In this document: positions 2,884-12,856 of the stretch, piece after piece
How the letters are laid out: every line of letters begins with the position of its first letter
Position numbering within the stretch: position 1 is the stretch's first letter
Assembly: GCA_016839785.1 (NCBI GenBank)
Contig: JAEOTQ010000042.1
Coordinates: forward strand, 1-15,850
DNA from: Candidatus Hodarchaeota archaeon
Lineage (GTDB): Archaea > Asgardarchaeota > Heimdallarchaeia > Hodarchaeales > Hodarchaeaceae
Direction: 5' to 3'
Length of the DNA: 15,850 bases
Translations under genes and position numbers: made by a program
The notes under the pieces: generated by a model
The model's database searches: none
What the model was told of the DNA's origin: nothing
The model's input: only the letters and a program-made list of their open reading frames with translations

Positions 2884-2958
2884 CTCAAATGAAACATAAT
2901 AGAAGAAAGATCATGCGGGGGGAGGGGTTTGAACCCTCGAACGTCTATACGACTGGAT

Positions 2959-2976
2959 TTCTCATTCAATGTGGAT
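2959..2976 (-). other. tRNA-Leu intron 2 (18 nt, canonical 37/38)
   Basis: Central helix CTTA/TGAG with bulges AG|A and AA|A. Confidence 0.9.
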
Positions 2977-2992
2977 CTTAAGTCCAGCGCCT

Positions 2993-3047
2993 TTGGTCGG
3001 CGCCATGCGACAAACTAAAATGTCGTTTAGCCCACGTATAGCTGCCC
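2993..3047 (-). other. tRNA-Leu intron 1 (55 nt, position 21/22)
   Basis: BHB-type motif with central helix GGTC/GACC, bulges AA|G and AA|A, and intron helix GGC/GCC. Confidence 0.85.
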
Positions 3048-3208
3048 TTGACCTGGCTTGGCTACCCCCGCGAAGTAGGAAGGTAGGCTTTTCTGAAAAC
3101 AGGCAAAACACAGGTAGTAAAAAGAATTATCTATAGTTTGAGGATCATTTGGTATTAGCAGAAAATCGATAAGATCCCTATAGTCGTATTTAAATGGAGT
3201 AAATATAT

Positions 3209-9976: not shown

Positions 9977-11011
9977 TTGCGTCTAATTGATGGTAGCCAA
10001 GGTGAAGGTGGAGGTTCAGTATTACGTATTGCTACAGCCTTTGCATTAGTCAATCAAGAATCGATCACCATTGAAAATATTCGGAAGAAAAGGCCCGTAA
10101 CCGGACTTCGACCGCAACATCTTTTAGGTTTGCGTGCTTTGACAGATTTATGCTCTGGAGAATTAGTCGGTGGAGAAATTGGATCTGAAAAGATAACATT
10201 TCATCCTGGTTCTGACTGGAAATCAAATCTTGTGGTTAACATTCCAACTGCAGGAAGTATTGGCTTAGTTCTTCAGATCCTTCAAATCGGGATGCTAGCT
10301 TCTTCGAATCTTAGAGTCAATCTAACGTTTCAGGGTGGTGGGACATTTGGAAAGTGGGCTCCTAGTATCAATTATATCGAAATGGTAACATGGCAAATCT
10401 TCAAGCAGATGAATTATAATCTAGAATTAACCGTTAATCAACACGGTTTTTACCCTAAAGGAGGAGCTGAAGTGAAGGTCTCAATGAATTCACCCTCTAA
10501 TTTAACTGGTATAAATTTAAAACAGGAAGGAGAGATCACAAAAACCATTATTGATTCAGTTGCAACAACGCATTTAAAAAATGCTAGAGTAGCTGAAAGG
10601 CAGGCAGAAGAAATTCAACGTAGTCTAGCTGAACATGATATTGGAGCAACAGTCAATATTTCTATTTTAAATGCTAACAATCCAGGTTCAGGAGTTCTTG
10701 TATATTCCCCTACTGGTAATACGATAATTGCGGGAGATGCAGTTGGTGAAAAAAGAAAACCAGCAGAAAGAATTGGACAGATTGCCTTTAAAAATTATTT
10801 TATGACATTATCTAACCATTGTAGTGTAGATAGGTTCCTAGCAGATCAGATATTACCTGTGATGGCCTTAGCAAATTCCTCGAGTACATTTATTACTCCA
10901 ACTCTCACAAAACATACGAGAACTAATATTGATCTTATAGAGGCCTTAACAGACGCTAAAGTGACAATTCAGAAAATAGAGAACAAATTTCTAGTGTCTG
11001 TTGATGTTTAA
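9977..11011 (+). CDS. rtcA: RNA 3'-terminal phosphate cyclase
   Basis: Motifs IDGSQGEGGG, GLRPQH, GFYPKGG, DRFLADQ and the catalytic His in TKHTRTN. GGAGG SD lies 7 nt before the TTG start. Confidence 0.95.
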   Translation: MRLIDGSQGEGGGSVLRIATAFALVNQESITIENIRKKRPVTGLRPQHLLGLRALTDLCSGELVGGEIGSEKITFHPGSDWKSNLVVNIPTAGSIGLVLQILQIGMLASSNLRVNLTFQGGGTFGKWAPSINYIEMVTWQIFKQMNYNLELTVNQHGFYPKGGAEVKVSMNSPSNLTGINLKQEGEITKTIIDSVATTHLKNARVAERQAEEIQRSLAEHDIGATVNISILNANNPGSGVLVYSPTGNTIIAGDAVGEKRKPAERIGQIAFKNYFMTLSNHCSVDRFLADQILPVMALANSSSTFITPTLTKHTRTNIDLIEALTDAKVTIQKIENKFLVSVDV

Positions 11012-11332
11012 CTTCGCCGTTGTCTCTCTGAGCCATTGAAGATACTCCTCACTCCCTGTATGAATTTTGTATACTGCAAAAGCAGGAGTTTCATAAGAAT
11101 GAACCGACTTGAGCAGTTTTTCTAATGTCTCAACGAGCGATTCACGAGTTTTTACCCAGACAATGACCTCATTTTCCTCTTCAATGGTCTCTTTCCATCT
11201 GTAAATGGATCTTACATCAGAAATGATGTTTACACAGGCCGCAAGGTGTTCTTCGATCACTCGTATACCAAAATGTTTAGCATCTTCTAAATTAGGAAAA
11301 GTTGTATAAACTGCTACAAACAAGACATTCAC
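10991..11332 (-). CDS. cutA: Divalent-cation tolerance protein CutA
   Basis: Motifs YTTFP, LAACVN, SIYRW, EExE and HSYETP. Confidence 0.93.
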   Translation of the reverse strand: MNVLFVAVYTTFPNLEDAKHFGIRVIEEHLAACVNIISDVRSIYRWKETIEEENEVIVWVKTRESLVETLEKLLKSVHSYETPAFAVYKIHTGSEEYLQWLRETTAKLNINRH

Positions 11333-11340
11333 CTTTCATA

Positions 11341-11679
11341 TTATTTATGATATCCGAATCGGTGTTCTGATCGACATAATAAACACAGATAGTGAATCTG
11401 TTTTTTCTTACTATTTAACCGTACCTTAGTTGTATCACTGGTAAATGGAGCAAGACATTTATGGCAATATAGCTGTCGGAATGGTTTAGGAAGGTGAAAT
11501 CTACCTCGCATTCCCATTTTCTTGGCTGATTGAATATACTCTCTTGATAAATCGGGATCTGTCGATCGAAGATCAAAACTTCTTTGAAGGAGATAATTAA
11601 TTGCTTCAGAAAAGAGGACTTTCTTTGTTTGCTTTTCTGTTCTCGGTCGTCGTTTTTTCCTTTGCTTCGAGGGAGCCAT
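11341..11679 (-). CDS. rnp4: Ribonuclease P protein component 4 (Rpp21/Rpr2)
   Basis: A helical N-terminal part (LSREYIQSAKKMGMR..FHLPK) is followed by the YCHKC...CLLC..EHRF Zn ribbon. Confidence 0.9.
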   Translation of the reverse strand: MAPSKQRKKRRPRTEKQTKKVLFSEAINYLLQRSFDLRSTDPDLSREYIQSAKKMGMRGRFHLPKPFRQLYCHKCLAPFTSDTTKVRLNSKKKQIHYLCLLCRSEHRFGYHK

Positions 11680-11984
11680 ATAATCAGACGTCCAATTACC
11701 TTATCTCCTTAACCACGATTTTTGATTCAACCAAAACTTATATTTTTTACTTTTTATACTCATGATCAAATTCCTATATTGAAAGCACATTGATTTTACA
11801 TTTGGAAATATTTATTGTTCTTCTCATAATAACTACCACAAATCTTCATTCCTAGGGGACTAATCCATAGAAATAAATATCAAAGAAGTGCAAGAAACCT
11901 TTTTAGTTTAAAGCAAGGGGGGAAGAACTGCCAAGAAAGGGCTATAGTCAAAGGATTTCTGCTCCGATAGTGTAGCTTGGCCCA

Positions 11985-12014
11985 TGAGGGCATCAATGCG
12001 ATACCTACGGCTAA
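11985..12014 (+). other. tRNA-Glu intron 1 (30 nt, 21/22)
   Basis: Central helix GGCC/GGCT with bulges CA|T and AA|T. Confidence 0.85.
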
Positions 12015-12037
12015 TCATATCGGGCTTTCGCCTCGAT

Positions 12038-12068
12038 ATAGGATTACACCAGAAGTCTCCTGCGAGAG
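12038..12068 (+). other. tRNA-Glu intron 2 (31 nt, 44/45, variable loop)
   Basis: Central helix CTCG/CGAG, bulges AT|A and AG|G, intron helix TAGGA/TCCTG. Confidence 0.85.
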
Positions 12069-12139
12069 GACCCGGGTTCAAATCCCGGTCGGAGCATTTC
12101 CTTAGCATATGGTTTCCTTTCTTTTTAGAGTGATTAGAA

Positions 12140-12382
12140 ATGAGTCGACCTTTAGATGTCTTATCAAATGCTTTGAATCAAACGGTAATCGTTAAGATGA
12201 GAGCCTGGCGTGAGATTCGTGGCACATTACGTAGCTATGATCCCCATCTTAATCTATACCTGGAGAGTGCTGAAATGATTCATCCAGGCAATGAGGAAAC
12301 AGGTGAAGAAGAACGTACAGAAACCCTTGGGAATATTATTCTTAGGGGAGACAATGTAATCCTTATCTCACCTCCATCATAG
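12140..12382 (+). CDS. Sm-like archaeal protein (SmAP1/Lsm)
   Basis: RPLDVL, Sm1 motif GTLRSYDPHLNLYL and Sm2 motif LRGDNVILISP. The position upstream of rpl37e is the classic one. Confidence 0.95.
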   Translation: MSRPLDVLSNALNQTVIVKMRAWREIRGTLRSYDPHLNLYLESAEMIHPGNEETGEEERTETLGNIILRGDNVILISPPS

Positions 12383-12425
12383 ACTTGTATCTCAGATCAA
12401 CACAAATTTATCGAGCTGTAATAAA

Positions 12426-12614
12426 ATGACAAAAGGAACAACCTCACGAGGAAAACGTACATCACATAGGACACACATGCAATGTAGACGCTGTGGAAAC
12501 CGTAGTTTTCATAAACGTAAAGGTCGATGCGCATCCTGTGGATATCCAAGTCCCAAGCTAAGACGGTTTGGGTGGCAACGAAAGAATTTTAATCACCGTC
12601 GAAGGATAACCTAA
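12426..12614 (+). CDS. rpl37e: 50S ribosomal protein L37e
   Basis: MTKGTTSRGKR...THMQCRRCG..SFH....CASCGYP. Confidence 0.97.
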   Translation: MTKGTTSRGKRTSHRTHMQCRRCGNRSFHKRKGRCASCGYPSPKLRRFGWQRKNFNHRRRIT

Positions 12615-12636
12615 ATACATTGCCGAGGTAGCTTAG

Positions 12637-12663
12637 AGTTTACTCCCATGAGTAAACGAGTAA
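12637..12663 (+). other. tRNA-Phe intron 1 (27 nt, 15/16)
   Basis: Central helix GCTT/GAGT, bulges AG|A and AA|C, perfect 8-bp intron helix GTTTACTC/GAGTAAAC. Confidence 0.88.
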
Positions 12664-12671
12664 CCCGGGAG

Positions 12672-12703
12672 GATTGTCTCCTTAATTGGAGATGATTCCC
12701 GTA
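12672..12703 (+). other. tRNA-Phe intron 2 (32 nt, 22/23)
   Basis: Central helix CGGG/CCCG, bulges AG|G and TA|A, intron helix ATTGTCTCC/GGAGATGAT. Confidence 0.88.
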
Positions 12704-12718
12704 AGCGCTGGACTGAAG

Positions 12719-12743
12719 TCTGAGGATTGTTTAATCGTCAGAA
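12719..12743 (+). other. tRNA-Phe intron 3 (25 nt, canonical 37/38)
   Basis: Central helix CTGA/TCAG with bulges AG|T and AA|A. Confidence 0.92.
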
Positions 12744-12765
12744 ATCCAGTTGCCGTGCGTTCAAA

Positions 12766-12801
12766 AGGCATTCATAGGGAACAGGTGTCCCTCCCTGAAA
12801 T
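12766..12801 (+). other. tRNA-Phe intron 4 (36 nt, 59/60, T-loop)
   Basis: Strict BHB made of the T-stem, central helix TTCA/TGAA, bulges AA|A and AT|T, and intron helix GG/CC. Confidence 0.9.
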
Positions 12802-12856
12802 TCGCACCCTCGGCACTACTTTCTCCTTTAGTATTCATAGAATTTCAATTTTTTCC

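What the first reader, a model, noticed from the sequence alone, without database searches (positions are those of the whole stretch)
12622..12815. tRNA-Phe(GAA) gene interrupted by four BHB introns
Seen: removing 12637-12663 (27 nt), 12672-12703 (32 nt), 12719-12743 (25 nt) and 12766-12801 (36 nt) leaves a 74-nt canonical archaeal tRNA-Phe. Each intron independently shows a 4-bp central helix flanked by 3-nt bulges cut after the second base. Introns make up 120 of 194 nt, and the exon between introns 1 and 2 is only 8 nt (CCCGGGAG). Known: the multi-intron archaeal tRNAs I recall, mainly from Thermoproteales, have up to three introns; I cannot check whether four has been reported. Inference: intron 1 uses the 5' D-stem strand (GCTT) as its central helix, so the D arm cannot fold until splicing. 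This suggests ordered, refolding-dependent splicing by a broad-specificity EndA. Standard annotation would probably miss this gene or call it a pseudogene.
Basis: partly seen in the sequence, partly recalled or inferred. Interest (0 to 1): 0.88.

Follow-up and report, generated by a model that had tools for sequence, protein, structure and literature searches.

The report
Four-intron tRNA-Phe gene, Hodarchaeales archaeon
This is a genuine phenylalanine tRNA gene of an Asgard (Hodarchaeales-like) archaeon that is cut into five pieces by four short protein-spliced introns, a striking but already described kind of gene architecture in Asgard archaea.

Summary
Removing 12637-12663, 12672-12703, 12719-12743 and 12766-12801 leaves 74 nt, which ARAGORN calls tRNA-Phe(GAA). 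The introns sit at tRNA positions 15/16, 22/23, 37/38 and 59/60.

All four junctions have a 4/4-paired central helix with 3-nt bulges. Only 2.0% of random boundaries do.

The strongest evidence is comparative. Across 22 gene copies in 21 congeners, introns 1, 3 and 4 are each precisely absent in some relative. Exons stay near-invariant, and stems covary across exons.

No other tRNA-Phe was found in this 84.5%-complete genome. Closed congeners carry one interrupted copy. The genome encodes a two-subunit EndA with the crenarchaeal-type loop, and RtcB.

Ordered splicing is not required: all four motifs fit one fold. No splicing was observed directly.

Four introns is not a record. A 2026 preprint reports up to five intervening sequences per Asgard tRNA gene. 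In this lineage it is an outlier: 32 tRNA genes I resolved average about 0.9 introns. I file it as a new member of a known kind.

The parts
12622..12815 (+). tRNA-Phe(GAA) gene, five exons and four introns (194 nt; mature 74 nt, no encoded CCA)
12622..12636 (+). exon 1: tRNA positions 1-15 (5' acceptor strand, U8, 5' D-stem strand, start of D-loop)
   Evidence: Acceptor pairs 4, 5 and 6 covary with exon 5 across congeners.
12637..12663 (+). intron 1 (27 nt) at 15/16. HBh'-type: central helix GCUU/GAGU, 8-bp intron hairpin, no exon outer helix.
   Evidence: Precisely absent in G011, G006, G017 and G001.
12664..12671 (+). exon 2 (8 nt): tRNA positions 16-22 (D-loop with G18 G19, first base of 3' D-stem strand)
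   Evidence: Identical in 18 of 19 fully parsed congener genes, while the flanking introns vary.
12672..12703 (+). intron 2 (32 nt) at 22/23, inside the 3' D-stem strand. Central helix CGGG/CCCG; 9-bp intron hairpin offset by one unpaired base.
   Evidence: Present in all 22 genus copies examined.
12704..12718 (+). exon 3: positions 23-37 (rest of D stem, 26, 5' anticodon stem, anticodon GAA, G37)
12719..12743 (+). intron 3 (25 nt) at the canonical 37/38 site. hBHBh': central helix CUGA/UCAG, with the anticodon stem as outer helix.
   Evidence: Precisely absent in G006 (L019).
12744..12765 (+). exon 4: positions 38-59 (3' anticodon stem, variable loop, 5' T stem, T-loop to 59)
12766..12801 (+). 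intron 4 (36 nt) at 59/60 in the T-loop. hBHBh': central helix UUCA/UGAA, with the T stem as outer helix.
   Evidence: Absent in 13 complete genus copies. Skipped exactly by one contig of run X4.
12802..12815 (+). exon 5: positions 60-73 (end of T-loop, 3' T stem, 3' acceptor strand, discriminator A73)
12587..12593 (+). TATA-like box (TTTTAAT) about 32 nt upstream of the tRNA 5' end, inside the last codons of rpl37e. Inferred promoter.
   Evidence: Read from the sequence. The same TTTTAATCAC-type motif stands upstream of tRNA-Phe in the congener loci printed. Inference only.
12426..12614 (+). ribosomal protein L37e gene. Its stop codon ends 7 nt before the tRNA.
   Evidence: PF01907, 3.3e-22

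Best explanation
A functional, single-copy tRNA-Phe(GAA) gene of a Hodarchaeales-like Asgard archaeon. It is interrupted by four short bulge-helix-bulge introns at positions 15/16, 22/23, 37/38 and 59/60.

Inferred pathway:
- The gene is transcribed as a precursor of at least 194 nt. Transcription starts either from a TATA-like box inside the end of rpl37e or by read-through of the Sm-L37e operon.
- Each intron forms its own BHB motif with the four exon bases upstream of its 5' splice site.
- The heterotetramer-type (alpha-beta)2 splicing endonuclease cuts the eight sites. Its catalytic subunit carries the crenarchaeal-type specific loop (CSL/L1).
- RtcB joins the five exons. RNase P, RNase Z and the CCA-adding enzyme finish the ends.

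Introns 3 and 4 are canonical hBHBh' substrates. Introns 1 and 2 are relaxed HBh'-type substrates with no exon outer helix, which is why a broad-specificity EndA is needed.

Shown here: gene structure, motif geometry, conservation, covariation and presence of the enzymes. Inferred: transcription start, actual cleavage and ligation.
For: 1. The spliced product is called tRNA-Phe(gaa). It is 56-66 of 74 identical to the 16 tRNA-Phe genes, uninterrupted or with one intron, that ARAGORN calls in 30 loci from other genera of the class.
2. All four junctions have 4/4 central pairs and 3-nt bulges, against 2.0% of random boundaries.
3. Natural intron-minus alleles fix the boundaries. I examined 22 genus gene copies:
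   - 6 have all four introns (G000, G004, G002, G014, G019, and a second G013 copy lying across two contig ends).
   - 11 have introns 1-2-3.
   - 1 has 2-3-4, 1 has 2-4 and 2 have 2-3.
   - 1 is cut off after intron 3.
4. On 19 spliced genus sequences (8 distinct), 168 of 168 cloverleaf cells are standard pairs. Six of 21 pairs show compensatory double changes. Three of these are acceptor pairs whose halves lie in exons 1 and 5.
5. Intron hairpins are kept through compensatory changes. In intron 1, pair 5 reads A-U in 7, G-U in 3 and G-C in 6 of 16 sequences.
6. No other tRNA-Phe was found by ARAGORN -i (29 calls), by RF00005 (25 matches) or by blastn-short of the product. The three one-contig congeners G007, G010 and G016 each hold exactly one exon-3 match.
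7. Two EndA paralogues are encoded:
   - A 182-aa protein matches A. pernix catalytic chain 3p1z_B at 4.4e-43. The alignment is ungapped through the specific loop, and a Lys aligns to chain position 44.
   - A 215-aa protein has Val where the catalytic His would align.
   RtcB is also present.
8. Independent contigs of run X4 carry introns 1-3 with 0 differences.
Against: - No RNA evidence of splicing. The four runs laid are contigs only. The RNA runs X6 and X10 do not cover the tRNA, apart from one divergent contig that ends at 12667.
- The one exact intron-4 skip is in a library labelled 'RNA? (probably DNA)' and may be a strain allele.
- The genome is 84.5% complete, so a second tRNA-Phe in the missing part cannot be excluded.
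- Free-RNA folding gives the central helices of introns 3 and 4 low probability (0.00 and 0.12), although energy models penalise BHB bulges generally.
- Intron 2 lacks a strictly contiguous outer helix (h'=1, h=1). Its hairpin is offset by one base.
- tRNAscan-SE and Infernal scoring of the spliced product could not be run.
Confidence: 0.93

Rival explanations
1. A decaying pseudogene: a former tRNA-Phe gene disrupted by four insertions and no longer giving a working tRNA.
For: The standard tools available here do not recognise it. No expression data cover it.
Against: - It is the only tRNA-Phe detected.
- Exons are near-invariant while introns diverge.
- All 168 cloverleaf cells pair, with 6 compensatory pairs.
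- All four insertions sit at 4/4 BHB junctions.
- The interrupted gene is kept in 20 of 21 congeners searched.
Confidence: 0.02
2. A different exon-intron structure. For example, the D-arm carries one composite insertion or other boundaries, so the 8-nt 'exon 2' is not an exon, or there are fewer than four introns.
For: My scanner finds several equally scoring D-arm solutions from structure alone. ARAGORN accepts many arbitrary excisions.
Against: - G011, G006, G017 and G001 lack intron 1, and exon 1 runs straight into the 8-nt exon 2.
- The 8 nt are identical in 18 of 19 parsed genes.
- Every scanner solution within one point of the best still needs four introns.
- Introns 3 and 4 each have exact intron-minus alleles.
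Confidence: 0.03
3. The four-intron form is an assembly artefact or a chimera of strains.
For: The assembly is a 248-contig MAG with 3.4% contamination. The sample in run X4 holds several strains.
Against: The same four-intron structure is in five separately held genomes (G000, G004, G002, G014, G019), which differ by substitutions. X4 contigs from another sample cover 12586-12680 and 12651-12765 with 0 differences.
Confidence: 0.01

Closest known systems
[quoted passage not shown] Sources: Valentin-Alvarado et al. 2024, PMC11291895 (passages read); Goswami et al. 2026 preprint, 10.64898/2026.10.13.758758 (abstract, sections 2.1, 2.2, 2.4 and 2.6 and passages read; supplements closed).
   Same: - Several non-canonical BHB introns per tRNA gene.
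- D-arm introns that annotators miss.
- T-arm introns with clean motifs.
- An (alpha-beta)2 EndA background.
- The preprint reports up to five intervening sequences in one gene. Its worked example is a three-insert tRNA-Phe(GAA) of Atabeyarchaeia.
   Different: - Those reports centre on Atabeyarchaeia and on Freyr-/Jordiarchaeaceae. The preprint text says several Heimdallarchaeia lineages carry fewer than one per gene, and it never uses the word 'Hodarchae'.
- This gene is in a Hodarchaeota/Heimdallarchaeota-like genus, where the 32 tRNA genes I resolved average about 0.9 introns.
- Whether this gene is in their supplementary tables could not be checked.
Multi-intron tRNA genes of Thermoproteales (Pyrobaculum, Thermofilum). 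The work of Sugahara et al. 2007/2008 is known to me only as cited in PMC4090602 and PMC8450103, of which I read passages.
   Same: [quoted passage not shown]
- Relaxed HBh'/hBH motifs.
- Processing by an (alpha-beta)2 EndA with the specific loop.
- Iterative intron removal is discussed in the tRNAscan-SE 2.0 paper.
   Different: The stated maximum there is three introns per gene (PMC8450103); here there are four. I found no sign of the intron-sequence families shared between tRNAs that were reported for Thermoproteales: these four introns have no second copy in the genome.
Aeropyrum pernix (alpha-beta)2 tRNA-splicing endonuclease (PDB 3p1z, 3ajv)
   Same: - The 182-aa subunit aligns to catalytic chain B over residues 9-182 at 4.4e-43, without gaps through the specific loop.
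- It has the aligned loop Lys and the Tyr/His/Lys positions.
- A second, divergent paralogue is present.
   Different: The second subunit (215 aa) matches the M. kandleri and M. jannaschii enzymes better than the A. pernix beta chain. No biochemistry exists for this enzyme.

Membership tests
Archaeal BHB (EndA-spliced) tRNA intron | [quoted passage not shown] | tested here: met
   4/4 pairs at all four junctions (intron 1 with two G-U pairs). The random rate is 802 of 40,000.
Archaeal BHB (EndA-spliced) tRNA intron | Two 3-nt bulges on opposite strands that hold the cut sites | tested here: met
   The geometry fits at all four junctions. The cuts themselves were not observed.
Archaeal BHB (EndA-spliced) tRNA intron | At least one outer helix (h from exon or h' from intron) | tested here: met
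   Intron 1 has h' of 8 bp. Intron 3 has h of 6 bp and intron 4 has h of 5 bp. Intron 2 has a 9-bp hairpin only after a one-base offset; its strictly contiguous h' is 1, so under a strict rule it would be scored without an outer helix.
Archaeal BHB (EndA-spliced) tRNA intron | Excision restores a cloverleaf tRNA | tested here: met
   ARAGORN calls tRNA-Phe(gaa). 168 of 168 paired cells across congeners.
Archaeal BHB (EndA-spliced) tRNA intron | Spliced junctions or circular introns seen in RNA | tested here: inconclusive
   Only contigs were available. One exact skip of intron 4 occurs in a library that is probably DNA.
tRNA-Phe | Anticodon GAA, with G20 and A73 (the identity elements are recalled, not from a call) | tested here: met
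   Read from the ARAGORN drawing and the exon sequences.
(alpha-beta)2 EndA with crenarchaeal-type specific loop (CSL / L1) | Two distinct paralogues, one catalytic and one structural | tested here: met
   Two PF01974 matches (99.4 and 64.8 bits). The 182-aa protein keeps the aligned Tyr/His/Lys. In the 215-aa protein Val aligns to the His of the M. kandleri catalytic domain. The assembly into a tetramer was not tested.
(alpha-beta)2 EndA with crenarchaeal-type specific loop (CSL / L1) | Insert (specific loop) with a conserved Lys in the N-terminal part of the catalytic subunit | tested here: met
   Ungapped alignment to 3p1z_B through chain positions 38-50; query Lys39 aligns to chain Lys44. 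The role of that Lys is recalled from the literature. PMC5829648 (passages) states that Asgard EndAs carry L1.

The most novel reading that the evidence does not exclude
Intron 4 is being gained or lost right now within one species-level population. A contig from another sediment sample is identical over 115 nt, including introns 2 and 3. It lacks exactly the 36 nt of intron 4 and differs at only 2 of 114 downstream bases. Together with the 2-to-4-intron mosaic across the genus, this would make the locus a natural time series. It could show how BHB introns enter and leave tRNA genes in the archaeal order that recent phylogenies place nearest to eukaryotes (recalled), a route the 2026 preprint leaves open. 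The alternative bold reading is that the contig is RNA. It would then be a splicing intermediate in which the T-loop intron goes first, and the first direct splicing evidence for such a gene.
Probability: 0.4. Interest if true: 0.55.

Novelty: new member of a known kind. Interest (0 to 1): 0.38.

Why it matters
The locus shows with unusually clean comparative evidence that an essential, single-copy tRNA can persist in five pieces. It depends entirely on a broad-specificity splicing endonuclease.

It extends heavy tRNA interruption to a Hodarchaeales-like genus whose other tRNAs are only modestly interrupted.

It offers a well-defined substrate for biochemical study of Asgard EndA: two canonical and two relaxed BHB motifs, with natural minus-alleles for three of the four introns.

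For annotation, the genome would appear to lack tRNA-Phe unless multi-intron genes are searched for.

Tried and rejected
- Intron mobility. blastn-short of the four introns against the genome found no second copy (best non-self match 14 nt, E 0.18).
- RNA evidence. I laid contigs of two RNA runs (X6, X10) and two 'RNA? probably DNA' runs (X4, X7). The RNA contigs cover Sm-L37e. They stop at 12605 and 12554, or are divergent, and do not cover the tRNA, so nothing can be said on expression.
- Census. The working version resolved 32 loci. It misses genes with interrupted T arms or weak motifs. A relaxed rerun on 15 leftover loci returned nothing within its time limits. The counts are therefore a lower bound on genes and introns.
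- nhmmer exon chaining gave candidate loci only.
- The neighbouring tRNA-Glu-like gene (11961-12096) was brute-forced with ARAGORN. Hundreds of alternative two-intron solutions passed, so its boundaries stay unresolved and ARAGORN alone is not a strict test.
- The spliced aligner misplaced the 5' ends in loci of other genera, because it allows no small indels. I read those by eye.
- The flank tree from 520 nt has weak deep nodes, so I inferred no order of gains and losses.
- UAG reassignment was tested for a side observation and rejected.
- I ran no protein structure or complex jobs, because the EndA question was settled by sequence.
- Paper supplements are closed. The per-gene tables of PMC11291895 and of the 2026 preprint may already list this gene or other four-intron genes.

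Full report
**1. Observation**

The window reads as the finder said. Exons are 12622-12636, 12664-12671, 12704-12718, 12744-12765 and 12802-12815, with lengths 15, 8, 15, 22 and 14 nt. They sum to 74 nt. The four intervening stretches are 27, 32, 25 and 36 nt, or 120 of 194 nt.

The product, joined inside a script, is called tRNA-Phe(gaa) by ARAGORN. It has a 7-bp acceptor stem, a 4-bp D stem, a 5-bp anticodon stem and a 5-bp T stem. In tRNA numbering the introns lie at 15/16, 22/23, 37/38 and 59/60.

The unspliced locus is invisible to the tools available here:
- ARAGORN, with or without -i.
- Rfam at gathering score.
- Rfam at E<=5.
- RF00005 run over the whole genome (25 matches, none at this locus).

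**2. More than chance?**

At each junction, the four exon bases at -6..-3 pair 4/4 with the four intron bases at -6..-3. Both bulges are 3 nt and are cut after the second base. Among 40,000 random boundaries of like length in the same loci, 802 (2.0%) reach 4/4. Only 237 (0.6%) reach 4/4 with an outer helix of at least 2 bp.

The motif types differ:
- Introns 3 and 4 are full hBHBh' motifs. Their exon outer helices are the anticodon stem and the T stem.
- Intron 1 is HBh', with an 8-bp intron hairpin and no exon helix.
- Intron 2 has a perfect CGGG/CCCG centre. Its 9-bp hairpin is offset by one base, so it is also a relaxed motif.

I wrote a cloverleaf-plus-BHB scanner and ran it genome-wide over 4,461 T-loop seeds, of which 1,487 had acceptor candidates. 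It separates 32 loci (score at least 19.5) from noise. The best noise score is 18.5, and the noise solutions need five to eight long 'introns'. This locus scores 21, and every solution within one point of the best has four introns.

One caution applies. ARAGORN accepts many arbitrary excisions, so I do not lean on its call.

**3. Comparative evidence (the core)**

The Sm-L37e-tRNA locus is found in 20 of 21 other genomes of the genus. G001 was parsed separately, and G013 holds a second copy spread over two contig ends. That makes 22 gene copies, counting the window's own:

| Intron set | Copies | Genomes |
|---|---|---|
| 1-2-3-4 | 6 | G000, G004, G002, G014, G019, second G013 copy |
| 1-2-3 | 11 | G020, G005, G007, G008, G003, G018, G010, G015, G021, G016, G012 |
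| 2-3-4 | 1 | G011 |
| 2-4 | 1 | G006 |
| 2-3 | 2 | G017, G001 |
| truncated after intron 3 | 1 | G013 (L015) |

Introns 1, 3 and 4 therefore each have exact natural minus-alleles that fix the finder's boundaries. Intron 2 is present in every copy.

The evidence for a functional gene is as follows:
- The 8-nt exon 2 is identical in 18 of 19 fully parsed genes, while both flanking introns vary.
- On the 19 spliced sequences (8 distinct), 168 of 168 cloverleaf cells are standard pairs.
- Six of 21 pairs show compensatory double changes. Three of these are acceptor pairs split between exons 1 and 5, about 180 nt apart in the DNA.
- Intron hairpins are also kept by compensatory change.
- The Hb strand of intron 2 (CCCG) is invariant in 19 of 19 sequences.

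A tree of 520 nt of upstream flank puts the five four-intron genomes in one clade with support 1.0. Its deep nodes are weak, so I infer no order of gains and losses.

**4. Wider taxonomic view**

The closest named records for the EndA gene are 'Candidatus Heimdallarchaeota archaeon B3_Heim' and 'Candidatus Hodarchaeota' MAGs, at 89-91% identity.

An exon-3 pattern is present in 67 of 81 genomes of the class. In the 30 loci returned from other genera:
- ARAGORN -i calls tRNA-Phe(gaa) in 16. Ten are uninterrupted and six have one canonical intron. The window's spliced product is 56-66 of 74 identical to them.
- The other 14, read by eye, carry a T-loop insert with or without a short 37/38 intron.
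- So these genera carry zero to two introns. The two D-arm introns were seen only in this genus.

Within this genome, the 32 scanner-resolved tRNA genes break down as follows:

| Introns per gene | Genes |
|---|---|
| 0 | 13 |
| 1 | 12 |
| 2 | 4 |
| 3 | 2 (Asn-GTT, Thr-GGT) |
| 4 | 1 (this gene) |

That is about 0.94 introns per gene. It is a lower bound, because the scanner misses some genes.

**5. Is it the only tRNA-Phe?**

- ARAGORN -i finds 29 tRNAs. Its only 'Phe' is a mis-spliced Gln-like gene.
- blastn-short of the product finds only the five exons.
- The assembly is 84.5% complete, so absence elsewhere is not proven.
- The one-contig congeners G007, G010 and G016 each hold exactly one exon-3 match, which is the interrupted gene.

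**6. Machinery**

Two PF01974 genes are present.
- The 182-aa protein has both EndA domains. It aligns to the A. pernix catalytic chain 3p1z_B at 4.4e-43. The alignment is ungapped through the specific loop, with a Lys at the position of chain Lys44 and the Tyr/His/Lys positions kept.
- The 215-aa paralogue has Val where the catalytic His aligns. This fits a structural subunit.
- This matches the published statement that Asgard archaea have (alpha-beta)2 EndA with the L1 insert, and that only the loop-bearing types cut relaxed motifs (PMC5829648, abstract and passages).

RtcB is present, but as two pieces on two contigs. RtcA, an RNase P Rpp21 subunit and an Sm protein lie next to the tRNA.

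**7. Mechanism and the 'ordered splicing' idea**

The D arm indeed cannot form before splicing. Intron 2 splits its 3' strand, and intron 1 borrows its 5' strand.

An obligatory order does not follow:
- The MFE fold of the 194-nt precursor (-76.5 kcal/mol) already holds the acceptor stem and the BHB centres of introns 1 and 2.
- A single structure with all four motifs forced is feasible at -68.3 kcal/mol.
- In modelled intermediates, the centre of intron 2 is probable in every context (0.93-0.98).
- The centre of intron 1 is most probable while intron 2 is still present and intron 4 is gone (0.72-0.75). It drops to 0.02-0.03 if intron 2 is gone but intron 4 remains. This is only a weak, model-based hint.
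- Introns 3 and 4 score low in free RNA in all contexts. In intron 3 an internal hairpin competes with the BHB.

Iterative removal of closely spaced introns is in any case a known idea (PMC8450103, passage).

**8. Reads**

Only contigs could be laid.
- X4 contigs carry 12586-12680 and 12651-12765 with 0 differences. This confirms introns 1-3 in another sample.
- One X4 contig (229 nt, depth 2.5) joins 12765 to 12802, skipping exactly intron 4. It has 2 differences downstream.
- The library is flagged 'RNA? (probably DNA)'. The skip is therefore either a near-identical strain without intron 4 or a splicing intermediate. Either way it confirms the boundary.
- No X4 contig covers intron 4.

**9. 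Novelty**

- Valentin-Alvarado et al. 2024 report that 92-95% of tRNA genes in three Atabeyarchaeia and Freyarchaeia genomes have introns, and that over half have several.
- The October 2026 preprint reports 2.2 intervening sequences per gene in three focal families and 'up to five in a single gene'. It notes that D-arm inserts are systematically missed, and shows a three-insert tRNA-Phe as its example.
- The preprint places Heimdallarchaeia lineages below one per gene and does not mention Hodarchaeales.
- My searches for 'four introns' with tRNA and archaea, and for Hodarchae with tRNA and introns, found no specific report of this gene. Supplements were closed.

I therefore file it as a new member of a known kind: real, well supported, and of moderate interest.

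Noticed in passing
G000:C137:7569-7677 (+) (locus L074/L075); orthologues in L076-L086: A Gln-like tRNA paralogue with a 36-nt canonical intron and a perfect BHB centre (TTCT/AGAA) reads anticodon CUA with U37 in six congeners (G000, G014, G002, G019, G004, G005). In the other six loci printed it reads CUG with G37. ARAGORN mis-calls it Phe(aaa). TAG is still an ordinary stop: 527 of 2,478 long ORFs end in TAG, with a median read-through of 12 codons. It is a possible amber-suppressor-like or decaying tRNA, and remains unexplained.
   Followed up: partly
window 11961-12096 (+): A second interrupted tRNA, Glu(TTC)-like. It has an intact anticodon arm and T arm (Rfam tRNA 24.2 bits over 12030-12096). 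It carries two non-canonical inserts of about 30 nt, one in the D-loop and one in the variable region. The boundaries are not resolved. Its orthologue in G001 carries an extra T-loop intron at 59/60.
   Followed up: partly
window 2914-3071 (-): My scanner resolves this as tRNA-Leu(TAA) with two introns of 55 and 18 nt. ARAGORN calls it tRNA-Pro(tgg) with one 80-nt intron.
   Followed up: partly
window 12765|12802, contig of run X4: One 229-nt contig from another sediment sample lacks exactly intron 4 while keeping introns 2 and 3 unchanged. It is either a strain-level intron polymorphism or a splicing intermediate.
   Followed up: partly
G000:C169:3109-3975 (+) and G000:C135:49341-49904 (-): RtcB (PF01139) is found as two pieces on different contigs, covering profile positions 1-284 and 245-426. 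This could be a split gene, an intein or an assembly break.
   Followed up: no
G013: L041 (C303 end), L040 (C424 end), L015 (C424:3129-6591): G013 holds two tRNA-Phe copies. One has four introns, lies across two overlapping contig ends and has a different acceptor stem and a different intron 4. The other has sequence that departs from the gene inside exon 4. This may reflect mixed strains or an assembly chimera.
   Followed up: partly
window 9977-12815: A cluster of RNA-processing genes and interrupted tRNAs: RtcA (9977-11011), CutA, RNase P Rpp21 (11341-11679, - strand), tRNA-Glu, Sm (12140-12382), L37e and tRNA-Phe.
   Followed up: no
G000:C206:22519-22685 (-) and G000:C116:31104-31270 (+): My scanner gives tRNA-Asn(GTT) and tRNA-Thr(GGT) three introns each, of about 29-33 nt. 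They are the next most interrupted genes in this genome.
   Followed up: no
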